Below, one piece after another: positions 11,184 to 59,147 of a stretch of 64,000 bases of DNA (its first letter is position 1; each line of letters begins with the position of its first letter). Below the pieces are notes generated by a model that made no database searches, was not told the DNA's origin, and worked only from the letters and a program-made list of their open reading frames with translations. The stretch covers positions 32,001-96,000 of the IMG/VR virus record IMGVR_UViG_3300031519_006853; one strand, 5' to 3'. A program made the position numbers and the translations under genes. This stretch comes from a virus.

Positions 11184-11525
11184 GGGGGTGAACGGTTTTT
11201 GACAATCTGATTGAAATAAAAACTACAGCACCGGGTGATGACCTACATCAATCTTAGCCGACAACGCTGAGTTAGCAATGGCTGCCTAAGTAGGTAAGTA
11301 ATGCTCATCATGTTATTAGTATGCTTGTAAATAACTAAGATGTAAAAGGAAGCAGATTGTGGTTTAGTAATGTACCCTAAACATTACAACCAATAGAGCC
11401 TTTATGATTTTGTGGCCATGGGATATCAAAATTTGATTTTGGAAGTTTAAAGAAACTTATCCTAAGCTGTAAGAAATGTTTTTATGAATACTTATTGGAC
11501 GTGGGTTCGAATCCCACCACCTCCA
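11184..11525 (+). ncRNA. ssrA: tmRNA (one-piece); tag peptide (A)ADNAELAMAA at 11257-11289
   Basis: 5' GGGGGTG pairs with 3' CACCTCC-A with a G3:U70 pair. GAC follows the D-loop-like region, the T-arm is GTGGG-TTCGAAT-CCCAC, and the internal ORF GCC GAC AAC GCT GAG TTA GCA ATG GCT GCC TAA ends in Ala-Ala. Confidence 0.93.
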
Positions 11526-11530
11526 CAAAT

Positions 11531-11604
11531 GGGGAATTAGCTCAGCTGGCTAGAGCGCCTGCCTTGCACGCAGGAGGTCATCGGTTCGACTCCGATATTC
11601 TCCA
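11531..11604 (+). tRNA. tRNA-Ala (TGC)
   Basis: Complete cloverleaf: GGGGAAT/ATTCTCC acceptor with G3:U70, CCTGC-CT-TGC-AC-GCAGG anticodon arm, TTCGACT T-loop. CCA is not encoded. Confidence 0.97.
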
Positions 11605-11635
11605 CAATAATAAAATAAAAATAGTTAAATAAGTA

Positions 11636-57985: not shown

Positions 57986-58149
57986 TGGGGAGTATAATGG
58001 AAATATTTGCATTGCTCTTTATTATATTTTTGAGCTTTGTTTTTCATTGTGTTGTCTATGAAGATGACTATGTTAAAAAATGGTATTGGAAAGTATTAAT
58101 AGGTGGTGGTATATTAGCTCTAACTTTTGCTGCTGTTATGGGATATTAA
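57985..58149 (+). CDS. Small two-TM membrane protein (54 aa), not in ORF track
   Basis: Read by hand: MGSIMEIFALLFIIFLSFVFHC...WYWKVLIGGGILALTFAAVMGY. Confidence 0.55.
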   Translation: MGSIMEIFALLFIIFLSFVFHCVVYEDDYVKKWYWKVLIGGGILALTFAAVMGY

Positions 58150-58186
58150 ATTGTTAATAACTTTTTGAAAATAACATGAAACTATG

Positions 58187-58217
58187 GTTCAAAACCAATA
58201 AAAATTGATTATATTTA
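58187..58217 (+). promoter_or_regulatory. Variant early promoter (GTTCAA-N17-TATATTTA)
   Basis: Same spacing and downstream box as the TTTCAG class. Confidence 0.48.
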
Positions 58218-58246
58218 TACTATATTAATAAACAAACTAAAACTAT

Positions 58247-58432
58247 ATGAAAAAGAACGGAGATAACCTTAATGGAACAGTTGAATTTTATTATCAACAA
58301 TATATGAAAAGTTATGTATCTTTAAATCTAGAATTTTCTGAGTTTATTGCGAGCAAACTTCGATGTACTGAGCACCATGCGGTACAAGTAATAAAAACAT
58401 GGAAAAATAACAAACAACTAATAAACGCATAG
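58247..58432 (+). CDS. Small hypothetical protein
   Basis: ORF after a promoter motif. Confidence 0.55.
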   Translation: MKKNGDNLNGTVEFYYQQYMKSYVSLNLEFSEFIASKLRCTEHHAVQVIKTWKNNKQLINA

Positions 58433-58433
58433 T

Positions 58434-58622
58434 ATGAAAAAAGCAATTGGAAATTTTATAGTAGAATTATCAGGCGAAAGCTTAATGATTAAAAATCAAA
58501 AAGGTGATTTGTTAAAAGCAGAATCAGTTAAGCCGTTCGAATCAGATGATAAGTTTAAAGAACTATGTACTAATTTAGAAGCAAAGATAGCAGATAGAAA
58601 AGCAAAAGGTTTATCTGTATAA
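58434..58622 (+). CDS. Small hypothetical protein
   Basis: Coupled ORF. Confidence 0.55.
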   Translation: MKKAIGNFIVELSGESLMIKNQKGDLLKAESVKPFESDDKFKELCTNLEAKIADRKAKGLSV

Positions 58623-58634
58623 AAAATTAAACAC

Positions 58635-58749
58635 GGAGGGTTAGCCAAGTGGTAACGGCGCCATATCTTCTAAGGATTGAAAAGCAATGCTAGCTGCGTA
58701 AAGTAAATCTTAGGTATGGAAATCGGGAGTTCGATTCTCCCACCCACCA
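58635..58749 (+). tRNA. tRNA-Arg(TCT)-like gene with a 40-nt insertion 3' of the anticodon (intron-containing or tRNA-like RNA)
   Basis: Acceptor GGAGGGT/ACCCACC-A (A3:A70 mismatch), D-arm GCC-AAGTGGTAAC-GGC, anticodon stem CCATAT/GTATGG with loop CT-TCT-AA, T-arm GGGAG-TTCGATT-CTCCC. Insert spans 58674-58713. Confidence 0.72.
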
Positions 58750-58847
58750 GCTCTTAGATAGGTTAACAACCGAACAACGAGGCGTCAAATCTCACGCCTA
58801 CAAACCGAAAGGCTGAGTCTAAGTGGAGTATTAACGTAAAACGGAAT

Positions 58848-59147
58848 ATGGCAAAAATTAAATTAGAATCACATATGGGTATAGCCTTTTCAACAATAGG
58901 CGGTCAAAAATACCTATTCCCAGGATGGATCCCAGTCGAGGATCATATATCATTTAATGATGTTGAGGTTACAAATCCTTATGCAAATCAAAAATCAGAG
59001 ACTTATACAATTACTGGATCAAGAGGCGATAAATATACTGTAACAAACCGAAATGGCAAATTCTCATGTGATTGTCCTGCTGGTAAATTTAGAGGAACTT
59101 GTAAACATTCAACCCAAGTTCAAAAAGAACTCAACTTAGTTGAATAA
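58848..59147 (+). CDS. SWIM zinc-finger protein
   Basis: GSRGDKYTV....GKFSCDCPAGKFRGTCKH. Confidence 0.8.
   Translation: MAKIKLESHMGIAFSTIGGQKYLFPGWIPVEDHISFNDVEVTNPYANQKSETYTITGSRGDKYTVTNRNGKFSCDCPAGKFRGTCKHSTQVQKELNLVE

What the first reader, a model, noticed from the sequence alone, without database searches (positions are those of the whole stretch)
58635..58749. tRNA-Arg(UCU)-like RNA with a 40-nt insert that folds back and leaves the anticodon as a bulge
Seen: all tRNA arms are present. The anticodon loop CT-TCT-AA is followed by GGATTGAAAAGCAATGCTAGCTGCGTAAAGTAAATCTTAG before the 3' stem strand. The insert's ends pair with the loop (C67-G13, T68-A12, then AAGG/TCTT), which extends the arm and bulges exactly TCT. 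The acceptor has an A3:A70 mismatch. The insert is far too short for a group I intron, and the bulge polarity is opposite to an archaeal BHB. Inference: either a protein-spliced short tRNA intron in a bacterial virus, or a non-decoding tRNA mimic, e.g. a decoy for anticodon nucleases or an ArgRS sponge.
Basis: partly seen in the sequence, partly recalled or inferred. Interest (0 to 1): 0.72.

Follow-up and report, generated by a model that had tools for sequence, protein, structure and literature searches.

The report
Anticodon-less phage tRNA mimic with tail
This is not a spliced arginine tRNA but the tRNA-shaped front half of a roughly 194-base two-part phage RNA that cannot read codons, one member of a widespread family in uncultured, largely marine phages that I found in no paper or RNA database and whose job is unknown.

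Summary
The sequence facts hold.

Comparison with relatives overturns the intron reading:
- In 19 homologues ARAGORN different "anticodons" at shifting "intron" sites.
- The insert is a conserved part of a 59-nt covarying arm. It has one variable 4-7-nt bulge and no bulge-helix-bulge.
- No RtcB, splicing endonuclease or Pfam-type RNA ligase is in the record.

The tRNA core is conserved across 84 distinct modules: U8, A14, the T-loop, and a covarying 15-48 pair.

It is a four-way junction plus a pseudoknot, and both are strongly supported by covariation. The two halves were always found together, and the domain never follows an ordinary tRNA.

The family occurs in at least 120 metagenome contigs. 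It is absent from GenBank phages, Rfam 15 and the papers searched. This scan had already met it on other DNA.

Best reading: a stable, RNase-P-trimmed, non-decoding tRNA mimic whose acceptor end is capped by the 3' domain and which probably pairs with itself through a GCUAGC loop. Its target is unknown.

The parts
58629..58634 (+). 5' leader AAACAC, one instance of the family-wide AAAYAY leader just before the mature 5' end
   Evidence: Across 84 modules: -6 A 76%, -5 A 93%, -4 A 86%, -3 Y 89%, -2 A 86%, -1 Y 86% (sequences). Positions -1 to -8 are the stretch that bacterial RNase P contacts (PMC5602109).
58635..58749 (+). tRNA-shaped module, 115 nt, with no anticodon stem-loop
   Evidence: Rfam tRNA 43.9 bits. 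ARAGORN -i. Model R2 127.1 bits. Covariation in a 17-sequence subfamily: 97.1% of cells paired, 15 of 30 pairs with compensatory changes.
58635..58641 (+). Acceptor stem, 5' strand GGAGGGU. It pairs with 58742-58748 and has an A3.A70 mismatch.
   Evidence: A mismatch at 3:70, 4:69 or 5:68 is counted in 12 cells of the 17-sequence subfamily; most other family members pair fully.
58644..58659 (+). D arm: 3-bp stem GCC/GGC with a loop holding A14, G15 and G18G19
   Evidence: A14 is present in 77 of 84 modules. The nt 15-nt 48 (Levitt) pair covaries: A-U in 45, G-C in 27.
58661..58719 (+). Long arm replacing the anticodon arm: base helix 58661-58668/58712-58719, second helix 58673-58678/58706-58711, and an apical region
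   Evidence: MFE fold. Base-helix and second-helix pairs covary. Arm length varies widely in the family, with modules of 110-187 nt.
58669..58672 (+). 5'-side bulge UCUA, which contains the supposed UCU anticodon
   Evidence: In relatives the same bulge reads UUUA, UUAA, UUAUAAA or UACUCAA.
58689..58694 (+). Self-complementary apical hexamer GCUAGC, a probable loop-loop self-pairing site
   Evidence: At the same aligned site relatives have GAUAUC, ACUAGU or GAGCUC. All three symmetric pairs change on both sides and stay 100% complementary. A palindrome of 6 nt or more lies inside a predicted hairpin loop in 49% of 84 modules against 13% of shuffles. Predicted duplex energy -10.6 kcal/mol.
58725..58741 (+). 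T arm: GGGAG, UUCGAUU, CUCCC
   Evidence: A T-loop of the form UUCRANY is present in nearly all 84 modules. The stem covaries.
58742..58749 (+). Acceptor 3' strand ACCCACC plus discriminator A. No CCA is encoded.
   Evidence: The discriminator is A in 65 of 84 modules and is always followed directly by the 3' domain.
58750..58828 (+). 3' domain, 79 nt. It is a four-way junction: P1 58753-58759/58817-23 plus C58751-G58825; P2 58761-58771; P3 58780-58799; P4 58805-58812. The joining strands are invariant: GAACAACG (58772-79), ACAA (58800-03) and GA (58815-16).
   Evidence: Model R1 106.4 bits. On 83 distinct sequences 97.7% of cells are paired, 13 of 20 pairs have double changes, and 233 compensatory cells compare with 51 in shuffles. 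No Rfam family matches it.
58791..58793 (+). Last three bases of loop L3 (CUC), the pseudoknot partner of the 3'-terminal GAG
   Evidence: L3/tail combinations: CUC/GAG 28, UCC/GGG 22, CCC/GGG 6, UCC/GGA 4, ACC/GGU 2, GCC/GGC 2, GGC/GUC 1. Paired in 93.8% against 80.7% in shuffles, with 0 of 2000 shuffles as high.
58826..58828 (+). 3'-terminal GAG, the second pseudoknot strand. Family conservation stops here.
   Evidence: Downstream sequence is unrelated between members, starts with a pyrimidine in 86%, and is A/U-rich.

Best explanation
58635-58749 is the 5' module of a roughly 194-nt two-part non-coding RNA (58635-58828). The RNA belongs to a widespread, apparently undescribed family in uncultured, largely marine phages.

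What the module is. It keeps the tRNA L-shaped body: the acceptor/T stack, the D/T elbow and the 15-48 pair. Where the anticodon arm should be, it has a long arm of variable length, so it cannot decode. The 'UCU' is a chance reading of a variable bulge.

Proposed working (inferred unless marked):
1. The transcript is cut by host RNase P after the conserved AAAYAY leader, giving a 5' end at 58635. Only the leader conservation is shown.
2. The module stays joined to the 79-nt four-way-junction domain, which starts one base after the discriminator. The acceptor end is therefore never free for CCA addition or charging. The constant adjacency is shown.
3. The last three bases of the domain pair with its loop L3 (shown by covariation). 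This tucks the 3' end beside the acceptor-helix terminus and would give a compact RNA that resists exonucleases.
4. Two copies can pair through the self-complementary GCUAGC loop (supported by covariation).
5. The invariant junction of the 3' domain is the working part. It binds a still unknown protein or ligand, and the tRNA body serves as a processing and stability handle and as bait for a factor that binds tRNA bodies.
For: Identity and non-decoding:
- ARAGORN -i gives 11 different specificities in 19 homologues.
- The bulge sequence and length vary among close relatives.
- Bases 33-34 of the supposed anticodon loop are paired, and that pairing covaries.
- A normal tRNA-Arg(UCU) exists elsewhere in the same record.

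tRNA body under selection:
- U8 in 78 of 84 modules, A14 in 77 of 84, T-loop UUCRANY, and the 15-48 pair as A-U in 45 and G-C in 27.
- The acceptor, D and T stems covary.

Bipartite RNA:
- The 3' domain has 97.7% of cells paired, 233 compensatory cells against 51 in shuffles, and a covarying pseudoknot.
- 14 of 14 loci found with patterns from the tRNA-like part alone also carry the domain.
- No ordinary tRNA ends within 100 nt of the domain core in any of 154 loci.
- Some members have a plain hairpin in place of the tRNA body, with no obvious cleavage signal, still ending about one base before the domain.

RNase P: the conserved -6 to -1 leader coincides with the stretch RNase P contacts (PMC5602109).

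Self-pairing.

Against: - There are no expression data, and the ends are not mapped.
- Nothing shows that the two halves stay joined. An RNase Z-type cut after the discriminator is possible.
- The single-sequence fold is not unusually stable (z = -1.71).
- The palindrome signal is weaker on a crude test: palindromes of 8 nt or more occur in 33% against 29% of shuffles. It is also absent from predicted loops in about half the modules.
- The family sample was collected with exact patterns from P3 and the junction, so conservation of those parts is inflated.
- The nearest relative by its UvdE gene (94% identity) lacks the RNA at this site, so it is dispensable there or encoded elsewhere.
- The target and the benefit to the phage are unknown.
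Confidence: 0.55

Rival explanations
1. Processing handle. The tRNA-shaped module is only a cutting signal. RNase P cuts at its 5' end and an RNase Z-type enzyme cuts after the discriminator at 58749. This frees the 79-nt domain, which is the only active RNA, as happens with the herpesvirus MHV68 tRNA-miRNA transcripts, with MALAT1/mascRNA, or with plant mitochondrial t-elements.
For: The domain is the constant part and the upstream part varies, from a tRNA body to a plain hairpin. No CCA is encoded, and the domain begins exactly one base after the discriminator, which is the RNase Z site. The leader spans the stretch RNase P contacts.
Against: A mere handle needs only the acceptor and T arms. 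Here the elbow, the 15-48 pair and a self-complementary arm tip are conserved and covary. P1 starts two bases after the discriminator, leaving almost no single-stranded trailer. The hairpin-only members have no RNase Z signal yet keep the same spacing.
Confidence: 0.2
2. Self-cleaving ribozyme. The 3' domain is a new small ribozyme that cuts at its own 5' edge (58749/58750) and releases the tRNA-shaped RNA with a cyclic phosphate end. This is the role proposed for the HDV-like theta ribozymes that follow tRNAs in gut phages.
For: It occupies the same position as theta ribozymes, directly 3' of a tRNA body with no encoded CCA (PMC10879173). It has about 25 invariant junction bases and a short pseudoknot stacked next to the 5' boundary.
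Against: No ribozyme family in Rfam 15 matches even at E up to 10. The fold is a nested four-way junction plus one pseudoknot, not the HDV double pseudoknot. It is never attached to an ordinary decoding tRNA. No CCA-adding enzyme is found in the record.
Confidence: 0.1
3. Intron-containing tRNA-Arg(UCU). The 40 nt are removed by a protein endonuclease and a ligase, giving a working 75-nt tRNA.
For: ARAGORN -i makes that call, and the spliced sequence folds as a cloverleaf.
Against: The anticodon and the 'intron' site are not conserved. There is no bulge-helix-bulge. The insert has conserved, covarying features. The 3' end is fused to another domain. An intact tRNA-Arg(UCU) is already encoded. 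No RtcB, endonuclease or ligase is found.
Confidence: 0.02
4. Anticodon-nuclease decoy or ArgRS sponge. The RNA displays UCU as a bulge to soak up a host nuclease or the arginyl-tRNA synthetase.
For: The tRNA body is conserved. Phage tRNAs are known to counter tRNA-cutting defences (general knowledge).
Against: Neither UCU nor an anticodon-loop shape is conserved, even among the closest relatives, where the bulge reads UUUA, UUAA or longer. The arm differs completely in other subfamilies.
Confidence: 0.03
5. Decaying tRNA pseudogene, or the footprint of an insertion flanked by a TCTT repeat.
For: The acceptor has a mismatch, and a TCTT repeat flanks the insert in this copy.
Against: Compensatory changes occur in every helix. 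The family is widespread. The TCTT repeat is absent in relatives such as L083, L093 and L129.
Confidence: 0.01

Closest known systems
Phage T4 small stable RNAs: RNA D (species 2, 119 nt) and RNA C (species 1, 139 nt)
   Same: These are non-coding RNAs of unknown function in a T4-type phage, encoded directly after tRNA-Arg(UCU) in the tRNA cluster. In 17 of 134 family contexts our RNA also follows tRNA-Arg(UCU). RNA C has a T arm and an acceptor-like stem.
   Different: No detectable homology: model R1 finds nothing in the T4 region. RNA C scores only 17.5 bits to a tRNA-type model, against 43.9 bits here. The order differs, since in T4 the tRNA-like RNA comes second. T4 has two separate RNAs with a spacer and CCA ends. 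In this window the gene stands alone, not in a tRNA cluster.
HDV-like theta ribozymes next to gut-phage tRNAs (PMC10879173)
   Same: A conserved structured RNA associated with phage tRNAs that mostly lack an encoded CCA, proposed to cut the tRNA 3' trailer.
   Different: Theta ribozymes sit beside real decoding or suppressor tRNAs and have the HDV double-pseudoknot fold. Our domain is a four-way junction with one pseudoknot, matches no Rfam ribozyme, and accompanies only anticodon-less modules or hairpins. Catalysis is untested.
Canonical tRNA (Rfam RF00005), including tRNAs with introns in the anticodon loop
   Same: The acceptor, D and T arms, U8, A14, G18G19, the T-loop and the 15-48 pair are all present.
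   Different: There is no 5-bp stem with a 7-nt anticodon loop, no conserved anticodon and no bulge-helix-bulge. The 3' end is fused to another domain.
Other tRNA-shaped non-decoders: the tmRNA tRNA-like domain, YrlA/Y RNA, and mascRNA or the MHV68 tRNA-like RNAs
   Same: Each uses a tRNA body without decoding, and each is processed by tRNA enzymes (general knowledge).
   Different: There is no G3.U70 pair and no tag reading frame, and the phage has a separate tmRNA at 11184-11526. There is no YrlA hit in Rfam and no Ro60/TROVE gene in the record. Here the tRNA body is at the 5' end with a full D arm, followed by a specific pseudoknotted domain.

Membership tests
Decoding tRNA (RF00005) | Acceptor, D and T arms with the conserved tertiary core | tested here: met
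   43.9 bits against a 29-bit gathering score. U8, A14, the T-loop and the 15-48 pair are conserved or covary in 84 modules.
Decoding tRNA (RF00005) | A 5-bp anticodon stem with a 7-nt loop (U33, purine 37) | tested here: not met
   Bases 33-34 pair with 78-79. The arm is 59 nt with a 4-nt bulge.
Decoding tRNA (RF00005) | The same anticodon in orthologues | tested here: not met
   11 different calls in 19 homologues. Close relatives read UCU, UUU or UUA.
Decoding tRNA (RF00005) | A free N73-CCA 3' end that can be charged | tested here: inconclusive
   No CCA is encoded, and the discriminator runs straight into the conserved domain. Processing and charging cannot be tested here.
tRNA with a protein-spliced intron (bulge-helix-bulge type) | A bulge-helix-bulge, or a relaxed form of it, at the exon-intron borders | tested here: not met
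   There is a single 5'-side bulge and none on the opposite strand.
tRNA with a protein-spliced intron (bulge-helix-bulge type) | A splicing endonuclease and a ligase are available | tested here: not met
   No tRNA_int_endo, RtcB or RNA_ligase Pfam hit in the record. The RNA_lig_T4_1 search was uninformative because its controls also gave no hits. The record is only about 65% complete and the host is unknown.
tRNA with a group I intron | A self-splicing intron of about 200 nt or more with the P1-P9 core | tested here: not met
   The insert is 40 nt, and no intron family matches in Rfam at E up to 10.
T4 RNA C / RNA D | Sequence or structure homology to T4 rnaC or rnaD | tested here: not met
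   R1 finds no match in the T4 tRNA region at E up to 1. Only a weak tRNA-Sec-type hit falls on rnaC.
T4 RNA C / RNA D | Location just after tRNA-Arg in the tRNA cluster | tested here: inconclusive
   True for 17 of 134 family contexts. Not true in this window, where the nearest tRNA genes are far away.
tmRNA | A G3.U70 pair and a tag-peptide reading frame | tested here: not met
   The pair is A3.A70 here and G3-C70 in most relatives. A separate true tmRNA lies at 11184-11526.
YrlA / Y RNA | A match to the Rfam YrlA or Y RNA models together with a Ro60 (TROVE) partner | tested here: not met
   No Rfam hit. No TROVE domain in the record.
HDV-like (theta) ribozyme | The nested double-pseudoknot fold | tested here: not met
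   Covariation supports a nested four-way junction plus one 3-bp pseudoknot. No HDV-type Rfam hit.
HDV-like (theta) ribozyme | Self-cleavage at its own 5' edge | not testable with these tools
   This needs an in vitro cleavage assay.
The family defined here: tRNA-shaped module plus pseudoknotted four-way-junction domain | Both modules present, one base apart, matching the models built from relatives | tested here: met
   R2 127.1 bits and R1 106.4 bits on the window. The window was part of both seed alignments, so the independent support is that it aligns with about 80 other members.

The most novel reading that the evidence does not exclude
The 79-nt 3' domain is a new catalytic or ligand-binding RNA. 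One version is a new class of self-cleaving ribozyme. Another is a cap that holds the RNase-P-made 5' phosphate of the tRNA body next to the RNA's own 3' hydroxyl in one continuous helix, ready to be sealed into a circle. Either way the pair would be a self-processing, self-pairing tRNA mimic that phages use against a host factor that binds tRNA.
Probability: 0.15. Interest if true: 0.85.

Novelty: new variant of a known kind. Interest (0 to 1): 0.66.

Why it matters
Phage-encoded tRNA look-alikes have been known since the T4 RNAs C and D, yet none has a known function. This family is better defined. It has a full tRNA body with the decoding arm swapped for a self-complementary arm, and it is welded to a nearly invariant pseudoknotted junction domain. 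It is common in ocean metagenomes but invisible to tRNA finders, to the default Rfam scan and to annotation. It therefore offers a concrete, testable RNA for asking what non-decoding tRNA mimics do during infection. It is also a warning that 'intron-containing tRNA' calls in phage genomes can be artefacts.

Tried and rejected
Searches that found nothing:
- A neighbour-protein search with the 344-aa ORF found no relatives.
- Exact patterns built from the two tRNA halves found nothing.
- BLAST against GenBank phages found no homologue of the region, the tRNA-like part or the 3' domain.
- No supplement text is held for the 10,006-candidate phage RNA survey (PMC10690425), so I could not check whether the family is among its unnamed candidates.
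- No paper in the library holds the domain's sequence.

Statistical tests:
- A crude longest-palindrome test was only weakly positive: 92% against 73% at 6 nt or more, and no signal at 8 nt or more. I replaced it with a test restricted to predicted hairpin loops and with aligned-site covariation.

Readings rejected:
- I tried to map the domain onto the HDV fold. Its helices are nested and it has three hairpins, so it does not fit. Only the short pseudoknot next to P1 recalls HDV P1.1.
- A remembered likeness of 'ACGAGG...GCGCC' to the guanidine-III riboswitch was dropped, because the element order differs and Rfam gives no hit.
- The TCTT direct repeat as an insertion footprint is not conserved in relatives.

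Full report
**The observation**

Default ARAGORN and the default Rfam scan see only a tmRNA and a tRNA-Ala elsewhere in the window. With looser filters Rfam's tRNA model scores 43.9 bits (gathering score 29, E 6e-8) with a 48-nt insertion in the anticodon region.

The minimum-energy fold extends the anticodon stem through C33-G79 and U34-A78, bulges UCUA, and continues with a 6-bp helix. The fold on its own is not remarkable (z = -1.71).

**Setting**

The window is part of a 181.7-kb, 31% G+C virus record, estimated about 65% complete. All nearby genes are on the + strand. A UvdE endonuclease and a 2OG-Fe(II) oxygenase lie upstream, and small ORFs flank the RNA. The record also holds an ordinary tRNA-Arg(UCU) with an encoded CCA, unrelated in sequence to this one.

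**Relatives**

GenBank phages hold nothing similar. Using the UvdE gene as a handle I fetched 80 related IMG/VR loci. One (L002) has a homologue at the same place, which ARAGORN calls 'tRNA-Lys(ctt) with intron'. They gave only one hit in 185,579 species genomes, on a 6.6-kb contig of a metagenome-assembled genome.

The closest relative by UvdE (94% identity) has about 1 kb of other DNA exactly where the RNA sits here. The gene therefore behaves as a movable cassette.

**Why it is not a spliced tRNA**

- In 19 distinct homologues ARAGORN -i reports Arg, Lys, Ser, Phe, Val, Ile, Trp, Pro, Thr, Tyr and 'stop', with 'introns' of 27-60 nt at different places. Without -i it finds none.
- In a 17-sequence subfamily the supposed anticodon lies in a 5'-side bulge that reads UCUA, UUUA, UUAA, UUAUAAA or UACUCAA. 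The helices on both sides of the bulge covary.
- There is only one bulge, so no bulge-helix-bulge.
- The record has no RtcB, tRNA-intron endonuclease, CCA-adding enzyme or Pfam RNA ligase. This is weak evidence, given the incomplete record and an uninformative control.

**Why it is still a tRNA body**

Across 84 distinct modules of 110-187 nt, U8 is kept in 78 and A14 in 77. The T-loop is UUCRANY. The tertiary 15-48 pair is A-U in 45 and G-C in 27. The acceptor, D and T stems show compensatory changes. Many members of this subfamily have one mismatch in the middle of the acceptor stem: 12 mismatch cells at 3:70, 4:69 or 5:68 across the 17 sequences. Most other members pair perfectly.

**The arm tip**

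At one aligned site the subfamily has GCUAGC, GAUAUC, ACUAGU or GAGCUC. Each of the three symmetric pairs changes on both sides and always stays complementary. Family-wide, a palindrome of 6 nt or more lies in a predicted hairpin loop in 49% of modules, against 13% of dinucleotide shuffles. A cruder test was weak. I read this as selection for loop-loop pairing between two copies. It is an inference, not shown.

**The missed half**

Conservation does not stop at 58749. The next 79 nt (58750-58828) are nearly invariant in relatives.

I built a covariance model of this stretch and aligned 83 distinct sequences to it:
- 97.7% of cells are paired.
- 13 of 20 pairs have changes on both sides.
- 233 compensatory cells compare with 51 in shuffles, and slid controls collapse.

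P3 and the junction strands were part of my search patterns, so their invariance is inflated. P1, P2 and P4 were not in the patterns, and they covary strongly.

The fold is a four-way junction with joining strands A, GAACAACG, ACAA and GA. In addition, the last three bases of loop L3 pair with the three bases that end the domain. The combinations are CUC/GAG, UCC/GGG, UCC/GGA, ACC/GGU, GCC/GGC and GGC/GUC. They are paired in 93.8% against 80.7% in shuffles, with 0 of 2000 shuffles as high. No Rfam 15 family matches the domain, and no paper in the library holds its sequence.

**Linkage of the two halves**

- Patterns taken from the tRNA-like part alone recovered 14 loci, and all 14 carry the domain.
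- In 154 loci, no ordinary tRNA ends within 100 nt of the domain core.
- In about a dozen members the tRNA body is replaced by a plain long hairpin that in most of them still ends about one base before the domain.

The domain is therefore the constant element. What precedes it is a helix terminus, usually supplied by a tRNA-shaped body.

**Ends**

The six bases before the 5' end are conserved as AAAYAY, whatever lies upstream: an ORF, a promoter region or a tRNA-Arg. Ordinary tRNAs of this genome lack that leader. Positions -1 to -8 are what bacterial RNase P contacts (PMC5602109), so cleavage by RNase P at 58634/58635 is the likely origin of the 5' end. This is an inference.

After the terminal GAG the sequences diverge, beginning with a pyrimidine in 86% and then A/U-rich. 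No terminator follows.

From the secondary structure, the 3'-terminal pseudoknot helix should stack between P1 and the acceptor-helix terminus. That would bring the 3' end next to the 5' end. This is a geometric inference only.

**Comparison with known RNAs**

T4 encodes RNA D and RNA C directly after tRNA-Arg, and 17 of 134 family contexts also follow tRNA-Arg(UCU). However, my model finds nothing in T4, and RNA C is only faintly tRNA-like.

Theta (HDV-like) ribozymes are proposed to cut the 3' trailers of the gut-phage tRNAs they accompany (PMC10879173). Our domain occupies a comparable position, directly 3' of the tRNA body. It has a different, nested fold and never accompanies a decoding tRNA.

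tmRNA and YrlA are excluded.

**Verdict**

The intron reading is rejected, and the 'non-decoding mimic' reading is upheld in general but not in its specifics.

The element is one member of an apparently undescribed two-part phage RNA family. Earlier agents of this scan met the same family on other DNA and read it the same way. I reached the structure independently and add four points: the L3-to-3'-end pseudoknot, the hairpin-only variants, the covarying 15-48 pair, and the conserved leader that spans the stretch RNase P contacts.

Function remains unknown. My working model is a stable, RNase-P-trimmed, 3'-capped, self-pairing tRNA mimic whose invariant junction binds an unidentified partner.

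Noticed in passing
window 11184-11605: A phage-encoded tmRNA (tag peptide DNAELAMAA*, Rfam 77.8 bits) is followed 4 nt later by a tRNA-Ala(UGC). The phage therefore carries a true alanine-type tRNA mimic in addition to the RNA studied here.
   Followed up: no
L186:2-81 and L186:206-292 (metagenome contig Ga0163144_10430563): Two copies of the 79-nt-type domain lie about 200 nt apart on one short contig, so the bipartite RNA can occur in tandem.
   Followed up: no
L137, L119, L133, L189, L203, L160, L152 and others: In these family members the tRNA-shaped body is replaced by a simple long hairpin. In L137 it is a 12-bp stem with a GAAA loop. In most of them the hairpin still ends about one base before the conserved domain.
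   Followed up: partly
L001:7864-8893, compared with window 58634-58859: The closest relative found (UvdE 94% identical) has about 1 kb of unrelated DNA exactly in place of the RNA gene. L084 has the RNA but lacks the two small ORFs at 58247-58622. The region is a mosaic of swappable cassettes.
   Followed up: partly
window 58149-58246: A roughly 90-bp segment recurs at different positions around the RNA gene in L001, L002 and L084. It is probably one of the repeated promoter-like cassettes that other readers noted in this genome.
   Followed up: no
window 58615-58622: TATAAAAA overlaps the stop codon of the upstream 62-aa ORF, 13 nt before the RNA's 5' end. Relatives have TATAAAT or TATAATT at the same place. 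It resembles the T4 late-promoter box TATAAATA (from memory) and might drive the RNA.
   Followed up: no
G000:C1:113924-114000 (outside the window): An ordinary tRNA-Arg(UCU) with an encoded CCA lies here. tRNA-Leu(UAA) and tRNA-Gln(UUG) lie nearby without an encoded CCA.
   Followed up: partly
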